DNA of 64,000 nt from Escherichia phage SSBS18_WS_10_728: sequence record MT322327.1; one strand, given 5' to 3'. A program made the translations under genes and the position numbers. The first letter of the stretch is position 1. Every line of letters starts with the position of its first letter. Below are positions 304 to 24,003 of this stretch, in pieces. The notes beneath the pieces are model-generated. The model was not told where the DNA came from and searched no databases. It saw only the letters and a list, made by a program, of their open reading frames with translations.

Positions 304-307
304 AAAT

Positions 308-400: not shown

Positions 401-401
401 A

Positions 402-1136
402 TTATTTCTGTAATGCGTTCTTCATTTCTGGTGTTGCAATAGTGTCAATCACACCAGTTTTACAAGCATCATCAAACCAGTCTGGTAAGATACCTGCTAA
501 GAACCCATTGATATTCGTTTTAAGGTACTCTGCAATAAGGGCAGCTTCTTCTTCAATCATCTGAACAACTTCATCTGCATAAGCTGTAATCTTTGAAATA
601 CCTTCATTAATCTTATTAACAGCTTGGTTAGCTAAATCAGAAATAGTATCAAGACCTTTATCAATAGCATCCTGTAAGTCACTTAATACATCATTAACAC
701 CATCTAGTGTACTGTTAATCATATCCATAGCTTTTTGACCATACTCTGTAGCAACACCCATAATACCACTAAACGGTGTACAGCCAACTTGTTCCCCTGC
801 TGCACCCATAACATTAGAATAGCCTTTTGCTACCTGCATACGTGATGAAAACTCATCAATGGACTTTTGACCATAATCCGTCAGTGTTTTAGTGGTTGAT
901 GTAGTGCTTGTCAGACTCGTTGTAAAGCTGTTAAGCAGAACTGTTGTAAGTCCAGCAGCAACAAGTTTATCCTTTATTGTAGGGTCTGTTACAGAGCTAA
1001 TAGAGCTTACAAGTGATGTAGAGGCAGCTACGGTTCCACCTAGAACTGCTGCACCAGTAATAAGGGGATTAGAAAACCCTCTACCGGTTTTTAAGAGATT
1101 AAAAATCTCCTTACCTTGTTCTGTCATCTCTTTCAT
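402..1136 (-). CDS. hypothetical protein (Thr/Ser-rich)
   Basis: ORF 402..1199; start moved to internal ATG at 1136 (AAAGG RBS) because the 5' end overlaps tRNA-Phe. Confidence 0.45.
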   Translation of the reverse strand: MKEMTEQGKEIFNLLKTGRGFSNPLITGAAVLGGTVAASTSLVSSISSVTDPTIKDKLVAAGLTTVLLNSFTTSLTSTTSTTKTLTDYGQKSIDEFSSRMQVAKGYSNVMGAAGEQVGCTPFSGIMGVATEYGQKAMDMINSTLDGVNDVLSDLQDAIDKGLDTISDLANQAVNKINEGISKITAYADEVVQMIEEEAALIAEYLKTNINGFLAGILPDWFDDACKTGVIDTIATPEMKNALQK

Positions 1137-1152
1137 TAAGCACCTTTGAAAT

Positions 1153-1228
1153 TGGTAGTCCAGTGGGATTTGAACCCTCTTCTCATGTTTTTCAGACACG
1201 CGCTTTAACCATATAAGCTACTTGGACT
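1153..1228 (-). tRNA. tRNA-Phe (anticodon GAA)
   Basis: Acceptor stem 6/7 bp, T-arm GGGTTCAAATCCC, anticodon loop CUGAAAA, CCA encoded. Confidence 0.6.
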
Positions 1229-1234
1229 ATAAAT

Positions 1235-1310
1235 TGGGGTGACCTACGGGATTTGAACCCGTATAGACCATGTTCACAGCATGGGTCATTACCGTTTATG
1301 ATAAGGCCAC
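1235..1310 (-). tRNA. tRNA-His (anticodon GUG)
   Basis: Acceptor GTGGCCT/AGGTCAC, T-arm ACGGGTTCAAATCCCGT, anticodon loop CUGUGAA. Confidence 0.55.
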
Positions 1311-1341
1311 ATTTAAGGACTCTCGTAAGAACCCTTAGAAG

Positions 1342-1417
1342 TGGCAGCGGCATAAGGATTTGAACCTTAATAAGACAGCTTCAGAGACTGCTGCATTGCC
1401 AGTTATGCTATACCGCT
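1342..1417 (-). tRNA. tRNA-Gln (anticodon CUG), tentative
   Basis: D-stem GCAT/ATGC, anticodon stem GCAGT/GCTGT with loop CUCUGAA, T-arm TAAGGTTCAAATCCTTA, CCA encoded. Confidence 0.5.
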
Positions 1418-1422
1418 AAATT

Positions 1423-1501
1423 TGGTACTCCATATCGGATTCGAACCGATACATAACACAGATTTTAAGTCTGGCCTCTCTGCCAATTGGAGTAATGGAG
1501 C
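1423..1501 (-). tRNA. tRNA with Leu-type anticodon UAA but short variable arm (isotype uncertain)
   Basis: T-arm ATCGGTTCGAATCCGAT, CCA encoded, D-loop AATTGGCAGAG shared with tRNA at 2246..2323; anticodon loop CUUAAAA. Confidence 0.4.
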
Positions 1502-1503
1502 AT

Positions 1504-1578
1504 TGGCGGGGGATGTTGGAATTGAACCAACTTCTTCGATTTCAAAGACCGAGGTTTTAACCTTGTAAACTAATCCCC
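1504..1578 (-). tRNA. tRNA-Gln (anticodon UUG), tentative
   Basis: T-arm GTTGGTTCAATTCCAAC, anticodon stem TCGGT/ATCGA with loop CUUUGAA, CCA encoded. Confidence 0.5.
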
Positions 1579-1587
1579 TTTAAATCT

Positions 1588-2145
1588 TTACTTTCTCAGT
1601 GGATGAATAAAGAATGCCAACATAACTCTTTCCCTTGAGAATGCTCTTTCTTCTGGGACAACACTTTTAAGTTTCCAACCAACATAAATTCTCCAGTAGA
1701 ATTGTTTACCAAAGACTTTAATTGATGGGATAAAAGCGAATAACCCCCAAGCATTGCTGTTCCACATTAGGAGATAACCTGTCTGATTATCTTCAGGGTC
1801 AGAGCTTACGTTGATATTACCTTTCCACTTAGTAACATCTTTTACATCTCTTCCTAACACATGGTAAGAGAAGTTATAAGCTTTGTTTCTCCAGAGCCAT
1901 CCAACTCTCTGCAAATAGACACCCAGCTTACCAATCTTTCTAATCTTAGCCCATCTTTTAATGTGACCTTCATCACCATCAATAGGGTTGTCATATGTCT
2001 CCATCCATCTGAATCCAAAAGGTAGATGTCCTTTCTTCTCACTATAGAATGGAACTACAAAAGGTGCTAAGATAACTGCTAAGATTGCTGCCAATGGGTC
2101 TAGCAAAGCTAGGAAAATCCATGAAGCATACTTCAAATATCTCAT
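1588..2145 (-). CDS. hypothetical membrane-anchored protein inside the tRNA cluster
   Basis: 185-aa ORF, hydrophobic N-terminus, AAGAGG RBS 8 nt upstream of ATG. Confidence 0.55.
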   Translation of the reverse strand: MRYLKYASWIFLALLDPLAAILAVILAPFVVPFYSEKKGHLPFGFRWMETYDNPIDGDEGHIKRWAKIRKIGKLGVYLQRVGWLWRNKAYNFSYHVLGRDVKDVTKWKGNINVSSDPEDNQTGYLLMWNSNAWGLFAFIPSIKVFGKQFYWRIYVGWKLKSVVPEERAFSRERVMLAFFIHPLRK

Positions 2146-2164
2146 TTAAATAGCCTCTTTAAAT

Positions 2165-2240
2165 TGGCGCAGGATAAGGGATTCGAACCCCTATTAACAG
2201 CTTCGTAGACTGTTGCTCTATCCATTTGAACTAATCCTGC
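2165..2240 (-). tRNA. tRNA-Arg (anticodon ACG)
   Basis: Acceptor GCAGGAT/ATCCTGC perfect, anticodon stem ACAGT/GCTGT with loop CUACGAA, T-arm GGGGTTCGAATCCCTT. Confidence 0.55.
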
Positions 2241-2245
2241 AAAAT

Positions 2246-2323
2246 TGGTGTTCCAAGACGGATTCGAACCGTCACTAGTACAAGGTTTGAGCTTGCATCC
2301 TCTGCCAATTGGGATACTGGAAC
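2246..2323 (-). tRNA. tRNA with Leu-type anticodon CAA but short variable arm (isotype uncertain)
   Basis: T-arm GACGGTTCGAATCCGTC, anticodon stem GCAAG/CTTGT with loop CUCAAAC, CCA encoded. Confidence 0.4.
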
Positions 2324-2324
2324 A

Positions 2325-2399
2325 TGGTACTCACTAAAGGACTTGAACCTTTTTCTTCATCTTGTAATGGTGATGTTTTACCATATAAACTAAGCGAGT
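2325..2399 (-). tRNA. tRNA-Val (anticodon UAC), tentative
   Basis: D-stem GTTT/AAAC, T-arm AAAGGTTCAAGTCCTTT, anticodon loop AUUACAA. Confidence 0.4.
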
Positions 2400-2494
2400 G
2401 TGGAAGAGGTCTGAAGTTGTGCCGCTAACTCAACTCCGTGGAATTTGTTACGGTCTTCAGTTGACACCAGCGGTCTTTCACTTGACCTCTGAAT

Positions 2495-2571
2495 TGGTGC
2501 TGCTCACAGGACTCGAACCTGCATTTCCATCCTTACAAGGGATGTGTAATAGCCAATTATACGAAAGCAGC
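2495..2571 (-). tRNA. tRNA-Thr (anticodon UGU)
   Basis: Anticodon stem CATCC/GGATG perfect with loop CUUGUAA, T-arm GCAGGTTCGAGTCCTGT, CCA encoded. Confidence 0.6.
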
Positions 2572-2577
2572 ATTGTT

Positions 2578-2652
2578 TGGAGCATCCAGAGGGAATCGAA
2601 CCCTCAACCTCAGTTTGGAAGACTGTAATTTTCCCGTTTAAACTATGGATGC
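2578..2652 (-). tRNA. tRNA-Gly (anticodon UCC)
   Basis: Acceptor GCATCCA/TGGATGC perfect, T-arm GAGGGTTCGATTCCCTC, anticodon loop CUUCCAA. Confidence 0.55.
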
Positions 2653-2658
2653 ACTAAT

Positions 2659-2734
2659 TGGTGGAGTCACTGAGAATTGAACTCAGTTCCCAAGTTTGCA
2701 AAACTCGAATTTTAACCATATAAACTATGACCCC
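2659..2734 (-). tRNA. tRNA-Ala (anticodon UGC)
   Basis: Acceptor GGGGTCA with G3:U70 pair, T-arm CTGAGTTCAATTCTCAG, anticodon loop UUUGCAA. Confidence 0.6.
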
Positions 2735-2740
2735 AATGTT

Positions 2741-2816
2741 TGGTACAGGTGGAGGGAATTGAACCCATCGTCTTACTGATTAAGAGTCAGCCGCATAACC
2801 ATTTTGCTACACCTGC
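2741..2816 (-). tRNA. tRNA-Lys (anticodon CUU), tentative
   Basis: Acceptor GCAGGTG/CACCTGT, anticodon stem GCTGA/TCAGT with loop CUCUUAA, weak T-stem; paralog of tRNA at 4057..4132. Confidence 0.45.
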
Positions 2817-2823
2817 ATTAATT

Positions 2824-2901
2824 TGGTAGGAGACAAGGGATTCGAACCCTCAAACACCAACTTCTAAGGATGGTAGGTTTACCAATTACCGTCAATCTCC
2901 C
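2824..2901 (-). tRNA. tRNA with Leu-type anticodon UAG but short variable arm (isotype uncertain)
   Basis: T-arm GAGGGTTCGAATCCCTT, CCA encoded, anticodon loop CUUAGAA with 4/5-bp stem. Confidence 0.4.
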
Positions 2902-3156
2902 ATTAAATCTTTTTAGAGAACTTCTAAGAACCTAAGCAACAAGGTTCCACAACAAGCTGTAATAACCTTAGAAGCCCTCTAAAAAGACCTAAATAGGTCT
3001 TTACATAGTCTTGTTTAATCCGGTGACTAGAACCTTTGGAGAGCTTGATATTATCTCTTCTCCGTGACACCTACTAGGTGCTTTACTGTGCGTGTACGAC
3101 AATACACGAGGGATAAACCGAAAATGCGAGCAAGCATGACGGTGTAAATCTTATTA

Positions 3157-3246
3157 GGCGGTAAGTAAAGGAGTCGAACCCTCACCGTATCTCTACAGTG
3201 GCAACAGTTTTCAAGACTGTTTGGCTGCCATTAGCCGCTACCTACC
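3157..3246 (-). tRNA. tRNA-Ser (anticodon UGA), class II
   Basis: Acceptor GGTAGGT/ACTTACC, anticodon stem ACAGT/ACTGT perfect with loop CUUGAAA, long variable arm, T-loop TTCGACT; 3' CC encoded. Confidence 0.6.
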
Positions 3247-3259
3247 CCTAATAAGACTT

Positions 3260-3342
3260 TGGCATGGGACGGAGGAGTTGAACCCCTTTGAAACGGTTTT
3301 GGAGGCCGTTGCTCATGCCTTAGAGTCTTAACATCGTCCCAC
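3260..3342 (-). tRNA. tRNA, possibly Trp (anticodon CCA); atypical length
   Basis: Acceptor GTGGGAC/GTCCCAT, T-arm AGGGGTTCAACTCCTCC, CCA encoded, hairpin with loop CUCCAAA; D region ~7 nt too long in my fold. Confidence 0.35.
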
Positions 3343-3484
3343 ACTATAATTCGAAGCTTACCGTATTTTCGCAACACTGTAAAGCCCCTTCTCAGATTAT
3401 TTACATGTTCTGGAAAACATGAGATACAGACCACCTCCTTACACGGAGACCCGATAAGGTCGTCTAAGCAATCTGCTAACTATT

Positions 3485-3561
3485 TGGCACACCCTACAGG
3501 ATTCGAACCTGTAACTCAATGATTAGAAGTCATTTGCTCTGTCCAGTTGAACTAAGGGTGC
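3485..3561 (-). tRNA. tRNA-Arg (anticodon UCU)
   Basis: Anticodon stem AATGA/TCATT perfect with loop CUUCUAA, T-arm ACAGGTTCGAATCCTGT, CCA encoded. Confidence 0.6.
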
Positions 3562-3854
3562 ATTAATCTTTAAAGACTCTCTTAGAAAGCCCTTAAAGAT
3601 GCCCACTTTATTAATCATACCGTGGGCTAGTACGCCAAATTCTTTGATGAGGGATTGGAAGACCTCACTGGTGTTTAGCCTATCAAGCTACTGCCAGAAA
3701 AACATTGTCGTTTGCATTTATTTTAAATTTGCAAAATAGACGCTACGCAACGAAAACTATTCAGAATATGTACAACAAATTTCCCCACATTGTGTTACGT
3801 CTAACGCTCATGTATTGGTGTTTGAATTATACATATTATGAATCATTTTTAGTT

Positions 3855-3883
3855 ACTATAAAGCGGTCACATCTCAATGTCAA
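3855..3883 (-). promoter_or_regulatory. sigma70-like promoter reading leftward into tRNA genes
   Basis: Minus strand: -35 TTGACA, 17-bp spacer, -10 TATAGT. Confidence 0.5.
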
Positions 3884-3898
3884 CAACTTTATTGAAAT

Positions 3899-3974
3899 TG
3901 GTACTGGTAGGTGGAATCGAACCACCGATATTCCCTTATCAGGGGAGTGTTATAACCTTCTTAACTATACCAGC
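3899..3974 (-). tRNA. tRNA-Ile (anticodon GAU)
   Basis: Acceptor GCTGGTA/TACCAGT, T-arm GGTGGTTCGATTCCACC, anticodon loop CUGAUAA. Confidence 0.55.
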
Positions 3975-3975
3975 T

Positions 3976-4052
3976 TGGAGGTTCAGATGGGAATCGAACC
4001 CACATTCATAGGGCTTATGAAACCCCTGCATTACCTTATCTGCGACTGAACC
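3976..4052 (-). tRNA. tRNA-Met (anticodon CAU; elongator or Ile2-type)
   Basis: Acceptor GGTTCAG/CTGAACC perfect, anticodon stem GGGGT/GCCCT with loop UUCAUAA, T-arm GTGGGTTCGATTCCCAT. Confidence 0.55.
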
Positions 4053-4056
4053 ATAT

Positions 4057-4132
4057 TGGTAGAAGTGGAGGGATTCGAACCCATCGCCTGTCAGATTAAA
4101 AGTCTGCCGCATCACCATTCTGCTACACTTCC
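4057..4132 (-). tRNA. tRNA-Lys (anticodon UUU)
   Basis: Acceptor GGAAGTG/CACTTCT, anticodon stem GCAGA/TCTGA with loop CUUUUAA, CCA encoded. Confidence 0.5.
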
Positions 4133-4333
4133 ATTAAATTATCTTTGTAGATAAGCTACCCAGACTTGCTTAAGGTCTGTAGCGATGTGCCTTGTTGGGT
4201 TTAAATCTAGAATTTACCCTTTCACCCTTTGTGGTCGCATACTCACAGGTAAGCTTAATAGCTCACCTACAAAGATAATTACCAGACCGTTGTTTATCAT
4301 CTTAAGTGCTACCATTACACCAACTCGACATCT

Positions 4334-4357
4334 GCCGAGTGAAGGAATCGAACCTTC
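4334..4357 (-). other. orphan tRNA T-arm-like element (possible tRNA remnant)
   Basis: Perfect T-arm GAAGGTTCGATTCCTTC on minus strand but no matching 5' acceptor strand or CCA nearby. Confidence 0.3.
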
Positions 4358-4393
4358 GCCTTTTCTTTACCGGAGAAATAGATTGTTTAAGTT

Positions 4394-4413
4394 TTGCTGT
4401 AAACGGTCTTCTG
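4394..4413. repeat. tRNA-cluster repeat copy A (TTGCTG-N5-GGTCTTCTG)
   Basis: One of four 20-nt copies; CCAGACC partner at 4281 and 4424. Confidence 0.6.
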
Positions 4414-4483
4414 TAAATTTGTTGAGCCAGACCAAGTTTTAAATTTTTTCAAAATTAAATTGGCTTGAAAATATCATACGTGC

Positions 4484-4503
4484 TTGCTGAATTTGGTCTT
4501 CTG
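4484..4503. repeat. tRNA-cluster repeat copy B
   Basis: TTGCTGAATTTGGTCTTCTG; CCAGACC partner at 4424. Confidence 0.6.
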
Positions 4504-4591
4504 CTCCTTTAAAGAACACTCGTAAGAACCCTTTAAGGGAGGGGCTAAAATAGCCCTCTCAAAACATCATCTTGAAATACTTATTATAATT

Positions 4592-4669
4592 TGGCGGTTA
4601 CGAAGGGATTTGAACCCTCATCATCTCCCGTGACAGGGGAGTATTTTAACCAGATTAAACTACATAACC
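4592..4669 (-). tRNA. tRNA-Asp (anticodon GUC)
   Basis: Anticodon stem CTCCC/GGGAG perfect with loop CUGUCAC, T-arm GAGGGTTCAAATCCCTT, CCA encoded. Confidence 0.65.
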
Positions 4670-4675
4670 TTTATT

Positions 4676-4763
4676 TGGTGTGCCGTGTAGGAGTCGAACC
4701 TACCGAGTCTCAATGACAAGGGATTTACAGTCCCCACCGCTACCATCTACGGGATAACGACAC
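4676..4763 (-). tRNA. tRNA-Tyr (anticodon GUA), class II
   Basis: Acceptor GTGTCGT/ACGGCAC, anticodon loop CUGUAAA, long variable arm, T-arm GTAGGTTCGACTCCTAC, CCA encoded; 88 nt. Confidence 0.6.
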
Positions 4764-4772
4764 ATTTAAATT

Positions 4773-4849
4773 TGGCGGTTAGTCAGGGATTCGAACCCTG
4801 TGCCATTCGCTTAACAGGCGACCGCACATACCTTATGTGCTTCCTAACC
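4773..4849 (-). tRNA. tRNA-Asn (anticodon GUU)
   Basis: D-stem GCAC/GTGC, anticodon loop CUGUUAA, T-arm CAGGGTTCGAATCCCTG, CCA encoded. Confidence 0.6.
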
Positions 4850-4900
4850 TTAATACATTGCCAGACCGTGTTTTTTCTTTTATCCGCAAAAAGTATTTTG

Positions 4901-4920
4901 TTGCTGAATACGGTCTTCTG
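4901..4920. repeat. tRNA-cluster repeat copy C
   Basis: TTGCTGAATACGGTCTTCTG, 6 nt from 3' end of tRNA-Met; CCAGACC partner at 4861. Confidence 0.6.
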
Positions 4921-4926
4921 CAAAAT

Positions 4927-5003
4927 TGGAGGCGGGTGCAGGAGTCGAACCTGCCGATACCATGCTAATGAGACATGTGAGACGCCCTTTCTCTATACCC
5001 GCA
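4927..5003 (-). tRNA. tRNA-Met (anticodon CAU), possible initiator
   Basis: Anticodon stem CATGT/GCATG with loop CUCAUUA, T-arm GCAGGTTCGACTCCTGC, unpaired 1:72 position, CCA encoded. Confidence 0.5.
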
Positions 5004-5067
5004 ATTCTTAATGACCAGACCAAATCTCTTCTTTGTCCGATTTACCTTCAGATGAATAAGATTAAGT

Positions 5068-5087
5068 TTGCTGTAATTGGTCTTCTG
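5068..5087. repeat. tRNA-cluster repeat copy D
   Basis: TTGCTGTAATTGGTCTTCTG, 7 nt from 3' end of tRNA-Glu; CCAGACC partner at 5015. Confidence 0.6.
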
Positions 5088-5094
5088 TCAAAAC

Positions 5095-5172
5095 TGGCGT
5101 TCCAGAAGGGATTTGAACCCTCAAATATCCACTTTGAAAGAGTGGTGACTTTACCATTTTGTCCACTGGAAC
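5095..5172 (-). tRNA. tRNA-Glu (anticodon UUC)
   Basis: Anticodon stem CCACT/AGTGG perfect with loop CUUUCAA, T-arm GAGGGTTCAAATCCCTT, CCA encoded. Confidence 0.6.
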
Positions 5173-5179
5173 ATTAATT

Positions 5180-5256
5180 TGGTCTCTGTTGGAGGACTTG
5201 AACCTCCGGCCTTACCGCCCCAAACGGAACGCTCTACCAAGCTGAGCTAAACAGAG
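5180..5256 (-). tRNA. tRNA-Pro (anticodon UGG)
   Basis: Acceptor CTCTGTT/AACAGAG perfect, anticodon loop UUUGGGG, T-arm GGAGGTTCAAGTCCTCC, CCA encoded. Confidence 0.6.
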
Positions 5257-14789: not shown

Positions 14790-16360
14790 AAATTTTATCG
14801 GTTGTCCCAACCTCTGGGTCACCATCATATGTGAATAAAATATCTATCCTTCTTAACAGCCTTCTTAATCTTACTCTCTATATAGTTATATAGTACTATA
14901 TAGTATCTTAGTATCTATCTAGTGGTCTTAATAGCACCTCTGTATAGCCCTTCTAAACACTCTTCTAACAAGCCTTCTTAACAGCCTATACAATCACCTT
15001 AACCATTCCTCTACACCCTCTTAGAAGCTCCTATACACCTCTTAATCTCTAGGTTAGCTATGATACTCTCTATAGGTGTTCACTAGGAAATACTAAGCCT
15101 CTATATAGACTGTTTTAACAAACTTAACAGGAATATCTTTACAGACCTTATCTCACAAGGTCTAACACGGTACTAACAAGGTATCTTATAAGCCTGTTTA
15201 TGCCTGTATTTTTAAAAGACTGTCTAGGTAATTATTCAGAATTTTAAAATTTTTATAAAATAGGACTATCAAGTCATTTTTTAGGGTCTTTGAAGGAACT
15301 GAAAAATATCTGTAGAGTTGATTCGGTAGAGCCTACCTCATGATGTATATCTGCTTGGTAGCCCTTAACATCCTTGTAACATCCCCTTTGCAGAATTTTA
15401 AAATATCATTAACAATCTCTTAACAGTTGCTACATCTTCTTAACATCTCTTCAGAGGTCTTAACAGATTCTTAACAGAACTAACAAGAGCTTAACAGTTT
15501 TTTAACAAGTGCTGAATAGTCTTTACAGAGGTTTAACAGATGACTAACAAGTCCTAAGAAGTTAATTTTAAAGGGTTATTTTGTAAAGATAATTAACAAG
15601 TTCCTAACAAGTGTTTAACCTTTTTAACAAGCTATTAACATGGTCACTATCTCTTGGTCTATAGTTCCCTCTCCCTCTTAGTGACCCTTTAAACATACCT
15701 CTTAAAAGCTCTCCATAGCTCTTTGTAAGCTCTTTTAAGTCTCTTCCTAGTAGTTACACCCCCAACTATACAGAAAGCTATTTATAGGGCTTTACAGGAG
15801 CTTTTAAGGCTATGTCAAAGACTCTTACAAGGCTTTTACGTGGTTTTAACAGAGATTTAACAAGGGGCTAACAAGTTGCTAACAAGTACCTTAAAAGCAT
15901 AACTATGTAGGGTTTGTTAAGAAATTGTTAAGAAAATGTTAAGGGGGCTAGCATTTACGTAACTTTATAGCCTCTTTTACGTAACTTTGAAGTAACTTTA
16001 TAGCCTCTTTTACGTAACTTTATAGCCCCTATAACATACTTTTTAGTGACTATCAAGGGGGTTGTTTAGTTATTCACAAGATACTAACGAGATGATAAAG
16101 CTTACACCCTTATAAGATTCTTTTAAGGCTCTGGTAAGCTTTATAAAGGGATTTTAAGGGTGAAGTAATGCAATCCCTTAAGTTAGGTTAAAAAGGCTGT
16201 TATAGGGCTTTATAGAGCGTTTTAGTGGTTGCCCTTCCCTTTCGGGTTATGGGCTTATATTTAAGTTGATTTGATAAAAGGCTATAGAGTAGACTATAGA
16301 GTTATTGCTTTTAAGGTCTAGTAAGATTCTGGAAAGGAAAGGGAAAGGATTTAATAAGAC
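14790..16360. repeat. 1.6-kb noncoding region dense in short direct repeats
   Basis: No ORF of 60 aa or more on either strand; about 20 copies of TTAACAG/TAACAAG, TATATAG runs, ~23-bp direct repeats TACGTAACTTTATAGCCTCTTT at 15955-16030. Confidence 0.7.
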
Positions 16361-19109: not shown

Positions 19110-19200
19110 TTTTGAATCTCCTAGTTTAAGGACTTTGTTTAGTGGTAAAGCTCTTTATCTGGGGCTTACTGTACAGACTTATAAGCCCCTTGTAAAGTAC
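19107..19200 (-). promoter_or_regulatory. conserved leader cassette, type B hairpin
   Basis: Minus sense AAAGTACTTTACAAGGGGCTTA-loop-TAAGCCCCAGATAAAGAGCTTTACCACTAAACAAAGTCCTTAAACTAGGAGATTCAAAAATG. Confidence 0.6.
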
Positions 19201-19201
19201 T

Positions 19202-19405
19202 TTATCGGTTATTTTTGACAACTTTTAAAACTGCAAGATAACCTAAGCAATAAGAGTCGCCGAAGAGAGTCCTACCCATGAAAGAATCCTCTTTAATATC
19301 CTTTGCAGTGACAGTTTTTTCTACGCCGTGGGAAAGGACTACATCGCCAACTTTGATATCTTTGATATGAGTAGTTTCAATGTTTAAACCGTTGATAATA
19401 GCCAT
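19202..19405 (-). CDS. hypothetical small protein (array gene g)
   Basis: 67-aa ORF with conserved leader. Confidence 0.45.
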   Translation of the reverse strand: MAIINGLNIETTHIKDIKVGDVVLSHGVEKTVTAKDIKEDSFMGRTLFGDSYCLGYLAVLKVVKNNR

Positions 19406-19470
19406 TTTTGAATCTCCTAGTTTAAGGACTTTGTTTAGTGGGAAGGTAATTCCCTCCCCGTTGATGTGTA
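19403..19470 (-). promoter_or_regulatory. conserved leader cassette, type A
   Basis: Leader plus hairpin GGGAAGGTAATTCCCTCCCC. Confidence 0.6.
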
Positions 19471-19505
19471 ATTTAATCTATCTGAAAACCAGTGTCAACA
19501 GTTTT

Positions 19506-19910
19506 TTAGAGTTCTGCATAAATTGCGTCGCAGATATTACGAAAATCGTGATTTGTTAAGTTACGTTGCAACCATGTTGCGAAAAAGTCAGCGATTGCAA
19601 AATTAGCGTCATACTCAACAGATAGCCACACTTTAACAGCAAATCGAAACATTTTCAAGTCTAATTCTTTATTCATAACCTTTGATTTGCCTAACATGTC
19701 AGCCATCTCATATTGTGCACCGTCTAGCGTGATACCTGCTGCAACGTCAGCCAATGAGTTTTTTACGCTTTCAACGTCTAAGATAACACTTTGAATCTTA
19801 CCAATAATGTTGTGTAATGTTTCGTCCGGTGCTGATGACGTGATAACATTAATCCGGTTGACGGTCAAACGCGCTTTTAAGATTGATAACTCACGATTAT
19901 TAATAGCCAT
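19506..19910 (-). CDS. hypothetical protein (array gene h)
   Basis: 134-aa ORF with variant leader. Confidence 0.5.
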   Translation of the reverse strand: MAINNRELSILKARLTVNRINVITSSAPDETLHNIIGKIQSVILDVESVKNSLADVAAGITLDGAQYEMADMLGKSKVMNKELDLKMFRFAVKVWLSVEYDANFAIADFFATWLQRNLTNHDFRNICDAIYAEL

Positions 19911-19995
19911 TTTAGAATCTCCAATTTAGGATTTAGTTAGTAAAGCTCTTTATCTGGGGCTTACTTTATCGAACTATAAGCCCCTTGTAAAGTAC
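19908..19995 (-). promoter_or_regulatory. conserved leader cassette, type B variant
   Basis: Type B hairpin GGGGCTTA...TAAGCCCC with variant RBS region GGAGATTCTAAAATG. Confidence 0.55.
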
Positions 19996-19996
19996 T

Positions 19997-20269
19997 TTAT
20001 GCTAAATGCAGCTTTTTACCTTTTACCATGATGTAAGTTGATGCGCTATTACTATAAACATCCTGATAAATTCTGCGCAAACGGCCTTCGTAGTATACTT
20101 TCCAACTGGTTGGAATCTTTTTCCCGTATCCTGTAGCAGTTTTTTGGAGTCCTGCAACTTGCCAATCTAAGATATGTTGTTCGGCTTGTAAATCCTCGAA
20201 GTGCATTACACCGTTCACATAGTGACGAAGGGTTACATTTAAAGTGCGACCGTTGTTAGTAGTATACAT
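19997..20269 (-). CDS. hypothetical protein (array gene i)
   Basis: 90-aa ORF with conserved leader. Confidence 0.5.
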   Translation of the reverse strand: MYTTNNGRTLNVTLRHYVNGVMHFEDLQAEQHILDWQVAGLQKTATGYGKKIPTSWKVYYEGRLRRIYQDVYSNSASTYIMVKGKKLHLA

Positions 20270-20340
20270 TTTTGAATCTCCTAGTTTAAGGACTTTACTT
20301 AGTGGGGAGGTTATTACCTCCCGTTGATTAGTAATTTACT
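20267..20340 (-). promoter_or_regulatory. conserved leader cassette, type A
   Basis: Leader plus hairpin GGGGAGGTTATTACCTCCC. Confidence 0.6.
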
Positions 20341-20357
20341 TGTTTTAAAAACCAAAA

Positions 20358-20690
20358 TCAAGAGGAATTTTTTCGTTTGTTCAATTCTTGGACAATTACA
20401 GCGTAATAGTCTTTTAAGTCACTAATATTTAAAGCATTTATCAGAGAGTTATAATCATCCACTAACTGAAAATCATCTTTGAAAATGTCACTTATCTGAT
20501 AGGTTTTCGCTTTATATCTGAAGCTCATCTCTAGCCGCTTTATTTGCTCATCACTGAGGCGCCCTAGAAAGCTTTCTACAAGGTTATTGCTAACCTGCTG
20601 TGTGATTGCCTTATTTGCTAGATTATAGGCTTTATATGCCTTATATAGCGCGAAAATGGCAATGATTGCAGTGATACCAGTCATTAACAT
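20358..20690 (-). CDS. hypothetical membrane-anchored protein (array gene j)
   Basis: 110-aa ORF with N-terminal TM helix; start overlaps stop of upstream gene (translational coupling). Confidence 0.45.
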   Translation of the reverse strand: MLMTGITAIIAIFALYKAYKAYNLANKAITQQVSNNLVESFLGRLSDEQIKRLEMSFRYKAKTYQISDIFKDDFQLVDDYNSLINALNISDLKDYYAVIVQELNKRKNSS

Positions 20691-20980
20691 GGTGTTTCCT
20701 CTTTACGTGATACTTTGCCATTTACAGTTATCTCATAAGAATCTAGTAAGTCACTTTTAGATTTTACTGGACTTTTAAAAGTATCATCATAGACATTTAC
20801 TTGCAATACAGGTTTTTTATATTCCCTGCAACTATTCCATAAGCAAATCACTACACGACGGCCTTTTATTTTGCCGTGTAACCATTCCATAACATCATGA
20901 CTATTCCTTGATGTCTCTATAAAATCAATTTTGTTGAGTAATTTGCTGAGGTTTTCCCTAACTTTATTTGATAATTTCAT
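20684..20980 (-). CDS. hypothetical protein (array gene k)
   Basis: 98-aa ORF with variant leader. Confidence 0.5.
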   Translation of the reverse strand: MKLSNKVRENLSKLLNKIDFIETSRNSHDVMEWLHGKIKGRRVVICLWNSCREYKKPVLQVNVYDDTFKSPVKSKSDLLDSYEITVNGKVSRKEETPC

Positions 20981-21070
20981 CTTTGAATCTCCTAGTTTAA
21001 GGGTTAATTTGATAAATCTCTTTATCTGGGGCTATCATATCCGCTTGTTAGCCCCGTGTAAAGAAATCTA
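20978..21070 (-). promoter_or_regulatory. conserved leader cassette, type B variant
   Basis: CTTTATCTGGGGCTA...TAGCCCCGTG hairpin with leader. Confidence 0.5.
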
Positions 21071-21071
21071 T

Positions 21072-21584
21072 TTAGTTCTTAAAGATATTCATCACTGAAT
21101 CTTTTAATGCTTCCAAGCGTTCTAATACTTCAGATTCTGCGTCTGCGTTGTTCACTTCCTCTTTTAGTCTGTCATCTAAATCATCGCCGTCACTGTAGCA
21201 CCAATCGAAAGCATAACCAATATAAAAACTCTCTAAAACCGTGCTACCGTTTGCATCTACAACTTTCGCGGCAATGTTATACTCTGAAGCCTCTAAATCC
21301 CTTTCTAGTTCTTTCTGTAAGCTCGTGTAAGCCTCTTTCGATGGATTCTCACGGCCTTGTTTTGCATAGTCACTTGAAAGCTGCTTAAGGCTGTAATGTA
21401 AAGGGATTGCATATTTAAATTCATTACGCTGACAGTTAAGATTTTTAATAGTTACACCGCCTTGATGGTCATCTGTAAATTTCCAATTATCAAGGTTATG
21501 ACTTGCTTCGTAGCAATTAACAGCCTCATAAATGATGGAAAATTTTTCTTTTACAACTTCAAAGGTAGCGTCTACAGTTTTCAT
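21072..21584 (-). CDS. hypothetical acidic protein (array gene l)
   Basis: 170-aa ORF with conserved leader. Confidence 0.5.
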   Translation of the reverse strand: MKTVDATFEVVKEKFSIIYEAVNCYEASHNLDNWKFTDDHQGGVTIKNLNCQRNEFKYAIPLHYSLKQLSSDYAKQGRENPSKEAYTSLQKELERDLEASEYNIAAKVVDANGSTVLESFYIGYAFDWCYSDGDDLDDRLKEEVNNADAESEVLERLEALKDSVMNIFKN

Positions 21585-21678
21585 TTTTGAATCTCCTAGT
21601 TTAAGGACTTGATTTAGTGGTAAAGCTCTTTATCTGGGGCTTAAGATATCAACTTTTAAGCCCCTTGTAAAGTACTTT
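21582..21678 (-). promoter_or_regulatory. conserved leader cassette, type B
   Basis: Same architecture as 19107..19200. Confidence 0.6.
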
Positions 21679-21679
21679 A

Positions 21680-21937
21680 TCAGATTAAATTGCCAGTTAA
21701 TGATAAGTGCATTTTGTAACCTTGTTTAGTAAACACGTTCACTTTACCGATGGATTTTACACCTTTAAAGAGGTTATTTGAACTGCGTTTTAAGGTTAAC
21801 TTTTTATCAGCCTTCACGCCCCATCTTACAGCAGTTTGTTTTCCGTTGTCAACCACTTTCCCGCCTAACTTTTTCGCCATGATGCGAGCGTCATCACGAG
21901 TTTTTGCAGGAACTACAACGTTTTTGATAATAGCCAT
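21680..21937 (-). CDS. hypothetical basic protein (array gene m)
   Basis: 85-aa ORF with leader. Confidence 0.5.
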   Translation of the reverse strand: MAIIKNVVVPAKTRDDARIMAKKLGGKVVDNGKQTAVRWGVKADKKLTLKRSSNNLFKGVKSIGKVNVFTKQGYKMHLSLTGNLI

Positions 21938-22024
21938 TTTAGAATCTCCAATTTAGGATTTAGTGGTAAAGCTCTTTATCTGGGGCTTACTTTATCTAAC
22001 TATAAGCCCCTTGTAAAGTACTTT
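21935..22024 (-). promoter_or_regulatory. conserved leader cassette, type B variant
   Basis: Near-identical to the copy at 19908..19995. Confidence 0.55.
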
Positions 22025-22025
22025 A

Positions 22026-22406
22026 TCAGTTAATTTTGAAAATTGTCACATAGCCGTCACTGCCGATTATTTGAGACACTCCAGCTTTTTCCACTGAATA
22101 GCCCATATTTTCAAGATGATAAACAGCATCATCATAACCATATGCGCCACCCTGATAACGTCTCTTATCGCATCTTATCAGGTTTTTACCACGTCCTGCA
22201 AGTGCATTCAGTACGGCTTTTTCACTTGATAGCGTACCATCTAACATGGTTGCCGTGTAATGGTTGATTTTATTCCCGTTAATATCATACTTAAAATTGA
22301 ATGCGTGAACAACAATCAATTTGCCGTTAAATTTTTCATCAAGTGACTTCTCCAGTGCGTTGCGGAAGTTGTCTTTGTTGATGAATTTCGGTGCACGATA
22401 AGCCAT
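22026..22406 (-). CDS. hypothetical protein (array gene n)
   Basis: 126-aa ORF with leader. Confidence 0.5.
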   Translation of the reverse strand: MAYRAPKFINKDNFRNALEKSLDEKFNGKLIVVHAFNFKYDINGNKINHYTATMLDGTLSSEKAVLNALAGRGKNLIRCDKRRYQGGAYGYDDAVYHLENMGYSVEKAGVSQIIGSDGYVTIFKIN

Positions 22407-22493
22407 TTTTGAATCTCCTAGTTTAAGGTTAATGTAGTAAAGCTCTTTATCTGGGGCTTAAGATATCAGCTTTTAAGCCCCCTGTAAAGTACT
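22404..22493 (-). promoter_or_regulatory. conserved leader cassette, type B
   Basis: Type B hairpin plus CTAGGAGATTCAAAAATG. Confidence 0.55.
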
Positions 22494-22494
22494 T

Positions 22495-22701
22495 TTATTT
22501 ATCGTAGTAGTAAATTGCTGTCTGTCTTGTAAACTTCTTAGTGTTTCTTGTAAGGTAGCAATTAGAATTAATAGCCGTTTCTACATAGTTGCAATAGTCG
22601 GCTTCTGATATTCTGGACCATACGCCACAGATTTTCATGTAAAAACGTTTTGCCTTTGTGTTAACGTTAGTTGTAACCATTAATTCACGATAGTAAGTCA
22701 T
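22495..22701 (-). CDS. hypothetical small Cys-containing protein (array gene o)
   Basis: 68-aa ORF with partial leader. Confidence 0.45.
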   Translation of the reverse strand: MTYYRELMVTTNVNTKAKRFYMKICGVWSRISEADYCNYVETAINSNCYLTRNTKKFTRQTAIYYYDK

Positions 22702-22740
22702 TTTTGGATTCTCCAGTTTAGGAAGTGGGCTGGCTTGCCC
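22699..22740 (-). promoter_or_regulatory. conserved leader cassette, divergent copy
   Basis: CATTTTTGGATTCTCCAGTTTAGGAAG then hairpin GGGCTGGCTTGCCC. Confidence 0.4.
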
Positions 22741-22799
22741 GTCTGATGCAAATATTAAATAACCATAGTCAAAGAGTCAATAGGAATTTTAAAAATATT

Positions 22800-23150
22800 T
22801 TTGCAAAAAAAAAAAAAACTGTAATGAAACGGGCGCACGCGACTACCACAAAACAGAACTACAATCAAGAATTATTTTTCAATCCGCTACAAATTTTTCT
22901 GTTGACTTTTATTTTCAGATGTGGTAGCCTTGTGAGAAATGGCGACATCCCCACCTGCACCCACCTACCTGCACAATTCTAAAATGATTTTTCTTGCCCG
23001 ACCTGAGCGGGGTCTGCACGTTTTGAAAATAAAAAAGCTCTTTGGAGATTATCTGCACAGTTTGAAAATGAATTTTCTCTTTGGAGTTCAAAATTTTCTC
23101 TACAGATTTCTCTACAGAACTCTACCTGCACAATTCTAAAATGAAAAAGC
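22800..23150. repeat. intergenic region with 14-nt poly(A) tract and four CTGCAC-N-TTTGAAAATG-like repeats
   Basis: A14 at 22805-22818; repeats at ~22966, ~23016, ~23058, ~23126. Confidence 0.6.
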
Positions 23151-23217
23151 CCTCCTTACCTGAAAAATTTACCAGATAAGAAAGGCTTAGTCTATTGTGA
23201 ATATTATACAGATTTTC

Positions 23218-24003
23218 TTAGTTCTTTGCGCCTAAAAAGGTAACTTCTGGTGAAGAGAAAATTTCCTCAACATTCTCATCAGTTCTTGCATAGATATATG
23301 TGTCTGCATCACTGCCAAATGTTACTGCAATTCTGTGATTGCTCTTCGACAGGTGGGTAACTAGAGCGTTACTTAGAGACATCTTTTCAACCGGAGGGTT
23401 ACTTTGATGTATCTCGCCTTTTCTTCGTCTGAAGAGGGTAACTGCATCATCAGTGAACGTTACTACACCTGCAAAGTATTCTGGTTCACAGTAGTTCTTC
23501 CAACCTGAGCGTAACTTGTGGTACATCTCCCCTTCGTAGACATACAGATACACATCTACACTCTTCATCACCTGATTAATGATAACGGTAACGGCTTGAG
23601 GGTCCAGTCCACCGATACCTGCACCAATCATAGGTAACCCAACTTTCTTCAACTGATTCACTTCACAGTATCTGTTAAACTGTTTCAAAGATGACTCTAA
23701 AGCACTGTATCGAGCATCTTTACCAGTCTTAAGCTGAGTGTAAAGGTTAGCTATACGGCCTTGTTTTAAACGTGCTACAGAGAAATTGCCTAGTAAATTC
23801 TCACAGGGCTTGTGGCCTATTCCACCTGCATACAGATAAACTTCTGTATCAGTCTCATATGCTTTTGGGTAAAGTTTAGAAATCTTGTCAGCGATACCTG
23901 CACCCATTAAGTTCATACAGTTGCAACCGTGACCGATGACGTCAAACTTACCTTTATCAAATGCTGCAAAGATATCACCATTGATAATTTTTACAATACC
24001 CAT
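23218..24003 (-). CDS. macro-domain protein (ADP-ribose binding/hydrolase-like) with C-terminal extension
   Basis: N-terminal motifs NGDIF, VIGHGCNCMNLMGAGIA, IGAGIGGL typical of Macro/Appr-1-p processing domains. Confidence 0.6.
   Translation of the reverse strand: MGIVKIINGDIFAAFDKGKFDVIGHGCNCMNLMGAGIADKISKLYPKAYETDTEVYLYAGGIGHKPCENLLGNFSVARLKQGRIANLYTQLKTGKDARYSALESSLKQFNRYCEVNQLKKVGLPMIGAGIGGLDPQAVTVIINQVMKSVDVYLYVYEGEMYHKLRSGWKNYCEPEYFAGVVTFTDDAVTLFRRRKGEIHQSNPPVEKMSLSNALVTHLSKSNHRIAVTFGSDADTYIYARTDENVEEIFSSPEVTFLGAKN

What the first reader, a model, noticed from the sequence alone, without database searches (positions are those of the whole stretch)
22800..23150. Poly(A) tract and CTGCAC repeats between the macro-domain operon and the small-gene array
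A 14-nt A-run is followed by four copies of a CTGCAC(A/G)NTTT(C/G)(T/A)AAATG-like motif. The core ATTCTAAAATG is the same sequence that forms the RBS-to-ATG part of the array leader, but here it lies on the opposite strand and without an ORF, suggesting recombination scars from cassette exchange or a binding-site cluster.
Basis: seen in the sequence. Interest (0 to 1): 0.4.

Follow-up and report, generated by a model that had tools for sequence, protein, structure and literature searches.

The report
Conserved non-coding repeat array, Felix O1-like phages
Four direct repeats in a 516-base gap of a Felix O1-like phage genome are a strongly conserved, one-per-genome non-coding element, most likely a row of docking sites for a DNA-binding protein, whereas the neighbouring 14-base A-run is a private expansion absent from all relatives.

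Summary
The window is a Felixounavirus (Felix O1-like) genome. In detail: an A14 run lies at 22805-22818. Four copies of CTGCACRNTTYKAAAAT lie at 22969, 23014, 23053 and 23126, in the gap between a macro-domain gene and an array of small early genes, all on the minus strand.

The A-run is A5-A6 in every relative, so it is not a conserved feature.

The repeats are conserved:
- They occur only at this locus, in the window and in a complete relative genome.
- Three to five copies sit at the same position in four Ounavirinae lineages.
- R1 and R3 vary about ten times less than synonymous sites of the neighbouring gene.

They are not coding. They match no Rfam family or ToxI and show no conserved plus-strand RNA fold. 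They are not DnaA boxes and are not at the genome ends.

The unit is GCAC-N6-AAAATGA plus an A/T tract that is an A-run in 29 of 52 distinct units and a T-run in 23. These two forms are equivalent on duplex DNA but not in RNA.

Best reading: an array of protein-binding DNA sites, fed by a conserved orphan plus-strand promoter. I favour a replication-origin-type module, with promoter control as the close alternative. Function is inferred, not shown. "Recombination scars" is not supported.

The parts
23147..23188 (-). Intrinsic terminator hairpin of the macro-domain operon. Its U-run on the minus strand (23146-23137) overlaps repeat R4.
   Evidence: 17-pair stem followed by a T-run.: -24.3 kcal/mol on the minus strand against -10.5 on the plus strand (G.U pairs become C.A mismatches); compensatory changes between lineages. 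Annotated as a terminator in Barry, wV8 and ASO1A.
23121..23156 (+). Repeat R4 (core CTGCACAATTCTAAAATGAAAAAG at 23126-23149), A-type, fused to the terminator stem.
   Evidence: 37.9 bits, E 2e-10. Diversity 0.059.
23095..23118 (+). Tandem mini-repeat TTTCTCTACAGA x2. A related CTACAAATTTTTCT lies at 22888-22901.
   Evidence: D8. The pattern CTACARATTT(T)CT occurs only at this locus in a complete relative genome. A similar tandem pair is in Zyzzx (D3).
23049..23084 (+). Repeat R3 (core CTGCACAGTTTGAAAATGAATTTTC), T-type.
   Evidence: 34.7 bits, E 2e-9. Diversity 0.010.
23013..23045 (+). Repeat R2 (core CTGCACGTTTTGAAAATAAAAAAG), A-type. Most relatives have ...AAAATGAAAAAG here.
   Evidence: 30.8 bits, E 3e-8. 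Diversity 0.054.
22965..22998 (+). Repeat R1 (core CTGCACAATTCTAAAATGATTTTTC), T-type.
   Evidence: 32.1 bits, E 1.4e-8. Diversity 0.012.
22908..22965 (+). Hypervariable segment with two alleles. It is C-rich here, with a vestigial CCCACCTGCAC at 22950-22960. In wV8, ASO1A and Mooglevirus it carries four G-runs (G-quadruplex-like).
   Evidence: Diversity 0.308. Several metagenome contigs break inside it, one with a Nextera adapter remnant.
22866..22930 (+). Orphan plus-strand sigma-70-like promoter: AT-rich upstream block, -35 TTGACT (22902-22907), 17-bp spacer, weak -10 TAGCCT (22925-22930). It points into the repeats, against all neighbouring genes.
   Evidence: Block 22866-22908 has diversity 0.016. 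TTGACTTTT and the TA of the -10 are invariant in 12 diverse sequences. phiEa21-4 has TTGACG-18-TATACT at the same place. This site did not reach the scan threshold in the window.
22805..22818 (+). A14 run (T14 on the minus strand), about -61 to -74 from the early promoter, just beyond its UP-element-like AT block.
   Evidence: It is A5-A6 in 30+ relatives. No Ounavirinae contig in IMG/VR has 10 or more A here.
22752..22803 (-). Early promoter of the small-gene array: -35 TTGACT (22780-22775), 17 bp, -10 TAATAT (22757-22752). The nearly invariant AT block 22781-22803 resembles an UP element.
   Evidence: 9/12. Annotated as a promoter in ASO1A. The TTTTAAAAATATTTTT columns are nearly invariant. 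The UP-element resemblance is my reading against the published consensus, from memory.

Best explanation
The CTGCAC repeats are a conserved array of direct-repeat binding sites on double-stranded DNA, found once per genome. Each unit is GCAC, six variable bases, AAAATGA, then a 4-5 bp A/T tract; the two conserved blocks are about one helical turn apart. Ounavirinae phages carry 3-5 units immediately after the terminator of the macro-domain operon. A conserved orphan sigma-70-like promoter on the opposite strand reads into them, back to back with the strong early promoter of the small-gene array.

Inferred mechanism: a sequence-specific protein, most likely phage-encoded because no host consensus fits in all lineages, occupies the units and builds a nucleoprotein complex. 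I favour a replication-origin-type module, with transcription from the orphan promoter running through iteron-like sites beside an easily melted AT-rich block (about 0.3). The close alternative is an operator array controlling the divergent promoter pair (about 0.25).

Shown: presence, uniqueness, conservation, non-coding status, lack of a conserved plus-strand RNA fold. Inferred: that a protein binds, and what the complex does.

The A14 run is not part of the element. It is a private homopolymer expansion at the far edge of the early promoter's AT-rich upstream block.
For: The window is a Felixounavirus. The motif is unique to the locus. The pattern search finds four exact copies. A profile of 35 units finds only the four repeats in the window and four in the complete 88,272-bp NBEco005 genome, with nothing else at E<=10. 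A regular-expression scan of that whole genome agrees. A paired-motif scan of IMG/VR returns only 84-94 kb contigs, the Ounavirinae size range.

The array keeps its position after the macro gene in four lineages: Felixounavirus, Mooglevirus, Kolesnikvirus (phiEa21-4, 4 units, period 37-39) and Hafnia phage Zyzzx (4 units, period 43-55). Another lineage has 3 units.

Purifying selection is clear. Among 19 Felixounaviruses, diversity is 0.128 at macro-gene third codon positions, 0.012 in R1, 0.010 in R3, 0.054-0.059 in R2 and R4, 0.016 in the promoter block, and 0.18-0.31 in the spacers.

The DNA-level reading rests on four points. Cores are conserved while spacers vary in sequence and length. 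GCAC and AAAAT are invariant or nearly so, with six variable bases between them. The tract after AAAATGA has no G/C in 208 positions of 52 distinct units, yet is A-type in 29 and T-type in 23; these are the same on duplex DNA and very different in RNA. No conserved RNA fold appears on the plus strand (-8 kcal/mol, covariation -0.2; z -0.46).

For the orphan promoter: TTGACTTTT and the TA at 17-bp spacing are invariant, and phiEa21-4 has a 10/12 promoter there. The AT-rich block 22750-22830 ranks among the 5-12 least stable 40-80 bp windows of the window (z 3.1-3.4).
Against: No binding protein is identified, and neighbouring genes have no DNA-binding annotation. Unit spacing is irregular (45/39/73 bp here) and differs between lineages, unlike classical iterons, which as I recall are evenly spaced. 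The -10 of the orphan promoter is weak (TAGCCT, TAAGAG), lies in the hypervariable segment, is missing in Zyzzx, and did not pass the scan threshold in the window. DnaA boxes fit only the phiEa21-4 units. Two other regions of the window (about 52.9 kb and 14.8 kb) melt more easily, and GC skew shows no turn at 23 kb. I found no transcript, binding or replication data for this phage group. A function in plus-strand RNA is disfavoured, not excluded.
Confidence: 0.5

Rival explanations
1. The repeats act in RNA. The orphan promoter makes a roughly 250-nt non-coding plus-strand RNA whose repeated linear motifs act as a decoy or sponge. One version is a mimic of a type III (ToxI-like) antitoxin, cut at the conserved AAAAU. 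Another is a mimic of translation-start regions that lacks a Shine-Dalgarno sequence.
For: A promoter upstream and a hairpin downstream bracket the repeats, all in one orientation. In phiEa21-4 the units are nearly tandem with a 37-39 nt period, similar to the 36-nt ToxI repeats (ToxI organisation from PMC3475682). AAAAU is invariant or nearly so. The 11-mer shared with gene leaders is far above chance.
Against: No Rfam match even at E<=10. No significant similarity to ToxI on either strand in four lineages. No conserved fold or covariation. The unit period varies from 37 to 77 nt, which does not suit units processed to a fixed length. A-run and U-run versions at the same unit position would be very different RNAs. 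The six bases between the conserved blocks vary, which is poor for base-pairing decoys. In the window the hairpin is weak on the plus strand (-10.5 kcal/mol) and has no U-run after it. No similar host sequence exists in 5,426 E. coli genomes.
Confidence: 0.15
2. The units are promoter-like elements on the plus strand. NAAAAT would serve as a -10 hexamer (A at position 2 and T at position 6 are always present), giving tandem promoters or sigma-70-dependent pause sites downstream of the orphan promoter.
For: In phiEa21-4 the end of one unit supplies TTGCCA 17 bp upstream of the next unit's TAAAAT or GAAAAT (10/12 and 9/12). The hexamer keeps the two key positions in all 52 distinct units, including CATAAT in Zyzzx.
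Against: In the window and in Mooglevirus the spacing puts no -35-like hexamer at 16-18 bp. The scan finds only one 9/12 site there, TTGAAA-18-GATTAT at 23023-23052, which uses a different hexamer pair. There is no plus-strand gene to express. The motif is absent from the rest of the genome, so it is not a promoter class. This reading does not explain the invariant GCAC.
Confidence: 0.08
3. The repeats are decaying leftovers without function: duplicated pieces of the terminator flank, or inverted copies of the small-gene leader cassettes left by recombination.
For: R4 is fused to the terminator U-run. A-type units resemble a terminator tail. The 11-mer is shared with leaders. This genome region does recombine: NBEco005 carries a 120-nt duplication of the promoter and leader, and the genes downstream differ between phages.
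Against: Diversity in R1 and R3 is ten times lower than at synonymous sites, and lower than at first and second codon positions of the macro gene. The array is kept in four lineages whose flanks no longer align. The core is conserved while the spacers are replaced.
Confidence: 0.05
4. The region encodes a small protein: either the 66-aa plus-strand ORF 22939-23139, or the minus-strand ORF annotated as gene 13 in wV8. Plus-strand ORFs are also annotated in Sf13 and ESh22.
For: Mechanical ORFs exist. Three repeats are in frame, with spacings of 45 and 39. Some records annotate genes here.
Against: The frame is not kept. There is a stop in Barry, a 2-nt deletion in wV8, 2- and 4-nt indels in Mooglevirus, and 37-nt periods in phiEa21-4. 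The minus-strand ORFs lack ATG starts here.
Confidence: 0.02
5. The repeats are a packaging signal or lie at the physical genome ends, as terminase binding sites like those of lambda cosB.
For: Four repeats resemble the four R sites of lambda cos (from memory). Several assemblies break in the adjacent segment.
Against: The breaks sit in the G-rich or C-rich variable tract, and one carries a Nextera adapter, so they reflect sequencing difficulty. For UAB_Phi87 the ends were mapped experimentally, with a 608-bp terminal repeat (PMC4837284). That record starts next to the wV8 gp055 homologue in the tRNA region, about 21 kb from here in window coordinates.
Confidence: 0.02

Closest known systems
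Iteron arrays of phage and plasmid replication origins (for example the four iterons of lambda ori next to an AT-rich block) - comparison from memory
   Same: Three to five direct repeats of about 20 bp in one orientation, a single cluster per genome, beside an easily melted AT-rich block, and crossed by transcription from a nearby promoter.
   Different: Spacing is irregular (37-77 bp) and lineage-specific. No initiator gene is linked or known. No DnaA boxes are conserved. No replication data exist. The units are not palindromic.
Transcription-primed origins of lytic phages (T7 primary origin: promoters plus an AT-rich stretch; T4 oriF/oriG/oriE) - comparison from memory
   Same: A promoter with no gene of its own reads into a non-coding AT-rich stretch. 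In most lineages the first transcribed bases are G-rich on the non-template strand, which favours R-loops. NBEco005 annotates a fused DNA primase/helicase and a DNA polymerase, which from memory resembles the T7 replisome.
   Different: The G-rich stretch is replaced by a C-rich allele in this window. The -10 is weak. The repeated sites have no counterpart at the T7 origin.
Operator arrays between divergent phage promoters (for example the four p4 sites of phi29 between promoters A2c/A2b and A3) - comparison from memory
   Same: Several sites for one regulator lie next to a divergent promoter pair that sets the early programme. Flanking A/T tracts suggest DNA bending.
   Different: The sites lie 60-250 bp downstream of one promoter and 190-370 bp upstream of the other, not over the promoters. 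The regulator is unknown.
ToxI / pseudo-ToxI antitoxin RNA repeats (PMC3475682)
   Same: Non-coding tandem-like repeats of about 36-40 nt in a phage genome, with a promoter upstream, a hairpin downstream and an A-rich conserved core.
   Different: No sequence similarity, no Rfam hit, no conserved fold, a variable period, and A-run/T-run dimorphism.
Promoter-stem-loop cassettes between small early genes (T4-type PeSL elements - name from memory)
   Same: The downstream small-gene array of this window is built from such cassettes: a promoter-like TTTACA, a hairpin and a conserved leader. The repeats share an 11-mer with the leader.
   Different: The CTGCAC units have no hairpin, no Shine-Dalgarno sequence and no gene. 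They lie on the other strand. They are also conserved in Zyzzx and phiEa21-4, where the adjacent gene leaders differ.

Membership tests
Iteron-type replication origin | Several direct repeats of about 17-22 bp in one orientation, clustered at one place in the genome | tested here: met
   Four units in the window, 3-5 in relatives. They are unique in the window and in a complete relative genome.
Iteron-type replication origin | Regular, helically phased spacing of the repeats | tested here: not met
   Spacing is 45/39/73 bp here, 37-39 in phiEa21-4 and 43-55 in Zyzzx.
Iteron-type replication origin | An adjacent AT-rich unwinding element | tested here: inconclusive
   22750-22830 is among the 5-12 least stable 40-80 bp windows (z 3.1-3.4), but two other regions are less stable.
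Iteron-type replication origin | A cognate initiator protein that binds the repeats, and replication that starts there | not testable with these tools
   No candidate among the neighbours. No replication mapping in the literature searched.
DnaA-box cluster | Matches to TTWTNCACA in the repeats across lineages | tested here: not met
   One-mismatch matches fall in the units only in phiEa21-4 (4 units); none fall in the units of the window, wV8, Maleficent or Zyzzx.
Type III antitoxin RNA (ToxI-like) | Sequence or family similarity to a known antitoxin RNA | tested here: not met
   Local alignment to ToxI is no better than shuffles on both strands in four lineages. No Rfam hit at E<=10.
Type III antitoxin RNA (ToxI-like) | Fixed-length tandem units that fold into a conserved structure | tested here: not met
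   The period varies from 37 to 77 nt. The consensus fold is -8 kcal/mol with covariation -0.2.
Type III antitoxin RNA (ToxI-like) | A cognate endoribonuclease toxin neutralised by the RNA | not testable with these tools
   No toxin gene is adjacent, and a host target cannot be identified by sequence.
Sigma-70 promoter (orphan plus-strand promoter, 22902-22930) | -35 and -10 hexamers at 16-18 bp | tested here: inconclusive
   TTGACT-17-TAGCCT is below the scan threshold. The -35 and the TA of the -10 are invariant in 12 sequences. phiEa21-4 scores 10/12 at the same place, and Zyzzx has no -10.
Sigma-70 promoter (early promoter, 22780-22752, minus strand) | -35 and -10 hexamers at 16-18 bp upstream of a gene | tested here: met
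   TTGACT-17-TAATAT, 9/12. It is conserved in relatives and annotated in ASO1A.
Intrinsic terminator (23188-23137, minus strand) | GC-rich hairpin followed by a U-run, with the stem kept by compensatory changes | tested here: met
   (-24.3 kcal/mol, z -6.1).
Protein-coding gene | A reading frame kept among relatives | tested here: not met
   Stops and frame-shifting indels on both strands.
Packaging site / genome terminus | Coincidence with the mapped physical ends | tested here: not met
   The UAB_Phi87 ends map to the tRNA region (PMC4837284). The contig breaks here are sequencing artefacts.

The most novel reading that the evidence does not exclude
This module is the so far unmapped replication origin of Felix O1-like phages (Ounavirinae). 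A host-polymerase promoter with no gene of its own transcribes through an often G-rich, R-loop-prone stretch into 3-5 iteron-like sites bound by an unidentified phage protein.
Probability: 0.27. Interest if true: 0.65.

Novelty: new member of a known kind. Interest (0 to 1): 0.45.

Why it matters
Felix O1-like phages are classic Salmonella typing phages, are used in biocontrol and therapy, and include the BASEL model phage Bas63. Their replication origin and the control of their early programme are not described in the literature I could search. This module of about 330 bp is among the most conserved DNA in the neighbourhood, more conserved than the first and second codon positions of the adjacent gene, yet it is unannotated or mis-annotated as small ORFs in public records. 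If it is a required cis-acting site, it must be kept in engineered or minimised genomes. It also gives a defined DNA bait for finding the protein that binds it.

Tried and rejected
- Rfam, at gathering thresholds on the whole window and at E<=10 on 22700-23250: only tRNAs and a distant group I intron. Nothing credible in the region.
- ToxI mimicry: the GTGCAG-N-TAGA resemblance to ToxI that I recalled is not above shuffles.
- Conserved RNA structure on the plus strand: none. The minus-strand signal is only the terminator.
- Coding potential on both strands: rejected.
- DnaA boxes: present only in phiEa21-4 units.
- By eye against consensus sequences recalled from memory: sigma-54, sigma-28, sigma-32, T4 late, IHF, Fis, CRP and Lrp sites, and EcoKI-type sites (GCAC-N6-GTT). 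None fits all units. These were not tool tests.
- Host mimicry: no match better than E=4 in 5,426 E. coli genomes.
- Bacterial and metagenome scans with the paired motif: apart from Ounavirinae contigs, only unrelated tandem repeats matched, which is what chance predicts for tandem arrays.
- Genome termini: rejected.
- GC skew: follows transcription, with no turn at 23 kb.
- Literature: no transcriptome, origin mapping or description of these repeats for the group. Two of these searches were poorly targeted. The Felix O1 paper lists direct repeats of 24 bp or more, and none are these.
- Minus-strand -10 reading (TAGAAT): fits only the ATTCTA-type units. Rejected.

Full report
**What the window is.** The region matches 246 phage records at 80-97% identity, nearly all Felixounavirus or other Ounavirinae. 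The finding lies in a 516-nt gap, 22702-23217. Both flanking genes are on the minus strand. Upstream in the direction of transcription is a 261-aa gene with a Pfam Macro domain, 23218-24003. It is the last gene of a long operon that in a close relative runs through nucleotide-metabolism genes, rIIA and rIIB. Downstream is a 68-aa gene, 22495-22701. It is the first of an array of small genes separated by repeated cassettes of promoter-like hexamers, a hairpin and a fixed leader.

**Check of the observation.**
- The A-run is 14 A at 22805-22818.
- CTGCACRNTTYKAAAAT matches exactly at 22969, 23014, 23053 and 23126. With up to two mismatches only one other site in 64 kb matches, against 0.62 expected.
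- ATTCTAAAATG occurs five times against 0.08 expected: three in minus-strand gene leaders and two in plus-strand repeats.
The only correction is that a mechanical 66-aa plus-strand ORF covers the repeats.

**Anatomy, read along the minus strand.**
- The macro gene stop is followed by a strong terminator hairpin, 23188-23147, with a U-run.
- The hairpin folds at -24.3 kcal/mol on the minus strand but only -10.5 on the plus strand, because three G.U pairs become C.A mismatches. It is therefore built for the macro operon.
- The U-run runs into R4. Next come a tandem TTTCTCTACAGA pair (23095-23118), then R3, R2 and R1, then a 57-nt hypervariable segment.
- Then comes a very conserved AT-rich block ending in TTGACT, which on the plus strand reads as a -35 hexamer pointing back into the repeats.
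- After about 120 bp more, including the A/T-run, comes a nearly invariant AT block resembling an UP element, then the promoter TTGACT-17-TAATAT (22780-22752) and the leader of the 68-aa gene.

**The A-run.** In an alignment of 33 related sequences the run is A5 or A6 everywhere else. A metagenome contig whose repeats are identical to the window's has A6. No Ounavirinae contig in IMG/VR has ten or more A at this site. The run is therefore a private expansion by slippage, or an assembly error. It sits beyond the conserved AT block, so I expect little effect on the promoter. It is not a conserved functional feature.

**Conservation of the repeats.**
- A distant-mode search with the gap alone finds 280 phage records. 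Mooglevirus aligns over 90% of it at 68-70%. Kolesnikvirus (phiEa21-4, SPARTY) aligns only over window 22970-23072, the R1-R3 block.
- Reading the gaps directly shows the same element after the macro gene in every lineage examined.
- Felixounavirus and Mooglevirus have four units.
- phiEa21-4 has four 32-nt units, CTATGCACAAATTCAAAATGAAAAACCCCTCC, at periods of 39/37/37.
- Hafnia phage Zyzzx has four 41-nt units, TTTTTATAAGCACGATTCTAAAATGAAAAAGC, at periods of 53/43/55.
- Another lineage has three units.
- Among 19 Felixounaviruses, nucleotide diversity is 0.128 at third codon positions of the macro gene and 0.017-0.027 at first and second positions. It is 0.012 in R1, 0.010 in R3, 0.054 in R2, 0.059 in R4, 0.016 in the TTGACT block, 0.18 in the R1-R2 spacer and 0.31 in the variable segment.
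- Selection therefore acts on the cores, not on the spacers.

**Uniqueness.** A sequence-only profile of 35 distinct units finds the four repeats in the window and four in the complete 88,272-bp genome of NBEco005. Nothing else appears at E up to 10. Pattern scans of that genome agree, and the CTACARATTT(T)CT mini-motif is also confined to this locus. A two-copy pattern scan of IMG/VR returns only 84-94 kb contigs, the Ounavirinae size range. The same scan of bacterial genomes and metagenomes adds only unrelated tandem repeats, the number expected by chance for tandem arrays.

**What it is not.**
- Not coding: the plus-strand frame has a stop in Barry, a 2-nt deletion in wV8 and 2- or 4-nt indels in Mooglevirus. 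Minus-strand ORFs lack ATG starts here.
- Not a known RNA family.
- Not a ToxI mimic (I first confirmed that fragments of the ToxI sequence I recalled occur in published papers).
- No conserved plus-strand fold.
- Not DnaA boxes outside phiEa21-4.
- Not similar to any E. coli sequence.
- Not the genome ends. For UAB_Phi87 the ends and a 608-bp terminal repeat were mapped by Bal31 digestion and run-off sequencing (PMC4837284). That record begins in the tRNA region, about 21 kb away in window coordinates.
- The contig breaks I saw near the repeats fall in the G-rich or C-rich variable tract. One retains a Nextera adapter and another is a chimera.

**DNA or RNA?** Four observations point to duplex DNA.
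1. The unit is bipartite. GCAC is invariant and AAAAT invariant or nearly so, while the six bases between them vary freely (AATTCT, AAATTG, GTTTTG, AGTTTG, GATTTT...). Two short blocks about one helical turn apart, with a free spacer, is how proteins read one face of a double helix. It is poor for RNA-RNA pairing.
2. The tract after AAAATGA never contains G or C in its first four positions (0 of 208 in 52 distinct units). It is an A-run in 29 units and a T-run in 23. On duplex DNA both are the same narrow-groove A-tract. In RNA they would be A5 versus U5.
3. Spacers differ in length and sequence between lineages. This does not suit RNA units processed to a fixed size.
4. There is no fold to conserve.

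The RNA reading keeps some weight. All units share one orientation downstream of a conserved promoter-like element, and phiEa21-4 has a good promoter at that place (TTGACG-18-TATACT).

**The orphan promoter.** TTGACTTTT and a TA exactly 17 bp downstream are invariant in 12 diverse sequences, although the bases around that TA belong to two unalignable alleles. The hexamers (TAGCCT, TAATAG, TAAGAG) are weak. The site is below the scan threshold in the window, and Zyzzx has no -10 at that spacing. I treat it as probable, not shown. There is no plus-strand gene for about 30 kb. In this phage the hairpin would not stop plus-strand transcripts well.

**Mechanism.** I commit to an array of sites for a sequence-specific DNA-binding protein, most likely phage-encoded, at about 0.5. 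Two versions remain.

- *Origin version (about 0.3).* It accounts for the orphan promoter, the single copy per genome, the conservation across the subfamily, the neighbouring easily melted block and the G-rich first-transcribed stretch in most lineages. Against it are the irregular spacing, the lack of a known initiator, the C-rich allele in this very window, and less stable regions elsewhere.
- *Operator version (about 0.25).* It accounts for the position next to the divergent promoter pair that launches the small early genes. It leaves the purpose of the orphan promoter open.

Nothing here is experimental.

**The link with gene leaders.** The 11-mer identity is real. However, Zyzzx units carry the same ATTCTAAAATGA while the one Zyzzx gene leader I read, upstream of ZYZZX_60, does not. 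Mooglevirus units share only AAAATG with their leaders. The leaders do not score against the unit profile. I regard the link as a coincidence between two A-rich sequences ending in ATG, not a functional or ancestral tie.

**Verdict.** The repeats are a real, conserved, unannotated cis element of a familiar general kind. Its binding partner and role are unknown. The A-run is ordinary.

Noticed in passing
window 22908-22965 (compare L003 1161-1218, L006 1197-1250): The 57-nt segment between the orphan -35 hexamer and R1 exists as two unalignable alleles of similar length. One is C-rich (this window, Barry). The other has four G-runs that fit a G-quadruplex pattern (wV8, ASO1A, Mooglevirus). The C-rich allele contains TGTGGTAGCC, an inverted copy of the conserved GACTACCACA at 22841-22850 (I5), which hints at an inversion or templated replacement.
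   Followed up: partly
L023, L024 and L026 (IMG/VR contigs from metagenome 3300045988); Andreotti record MN850610.1: Several assemblies end or start inside the G-rich or C-rich segment. L024 ends in a Nextera adapter sequence. L026 is joined to bacterial-looking coding sequence at the CCCGACCTGAGCGGGG hairpin. These are assembly artefacts in public contigs.
   Followed up: yes
L070 36580-37214 (NBEco005, MN994499.1 80580-81214): The closest relative has a 635-nt gap because about 120 nt are duplicated: the early promoter, the leader and the first codons of the 68-aa gene. This shows ongoing recombination between the repeated leaders.
   Followed up: partly
window 19110-22494: The gaps between the small genes are near-identical 86-100-nt cassettes: a promoter-like TTTACA, a GGGGCTTA...TAAGCCCC hairpin, and the leader CCTTAAACTAGGAGATTCAAAAATG. 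They resemble the promoter-stem-loop cassettes of T4-type phages and correspond to the 57-bp repeats listed for Felix O1.
   Followed up: partly
window 55279-55510 (+): Group I intron (Rfam RF00028, 60.6 bits, above the gathering score), lying across the end of a 737-aa plus-strand ORF (53118-55331) and just before the next plus-strand ORF (55560-56114). The interrupted gene was not identified.
   Followed up: no
window 228-5256 (-): Cluster of 26 tRNA genes. The UAB_Phi87 record, whose ends were mapped experimentally, starts inside the homologous region at about window 1380, so the physical ends of this phage type probably lie there.
   Followed up: partly
L067 1290-1440 (Ignavibacteria MAG CAVVVP010000010.1): 4.5 tandem 32-nt repeats, TTGCACRAATGGAAAATGAGCCGATTGACCCC, upstream of a Mu Gam-like gene and a DUF932 gene. 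They match the unit pattern but are probably a chance match among tandem repeats.
   Followed up: partly
L003 1218-1382 (wV8 gene 13); L007 1023-1301 (Sf13 gp58); L010 914-1207 and 1231-1332 (ESh22): Public records annotate hypothetical proteins across the repeat array, on either strand. The frames are not conserved between phages, so these are probably false gene calls.
   Followed up: yes
window 52899-53020 and 14827-15300: These are the least stable (most AT-rich) stretches of the window. The first is the divergent gap between the minus-strand ORF ending at 52890 and the plus-strand ORF starting at 53118. By comparison with NBEco005 this is probably the DNA polymerase / primase-helicase gap. 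It is an alternative candidate for an unwinding region.
   Followed up: no
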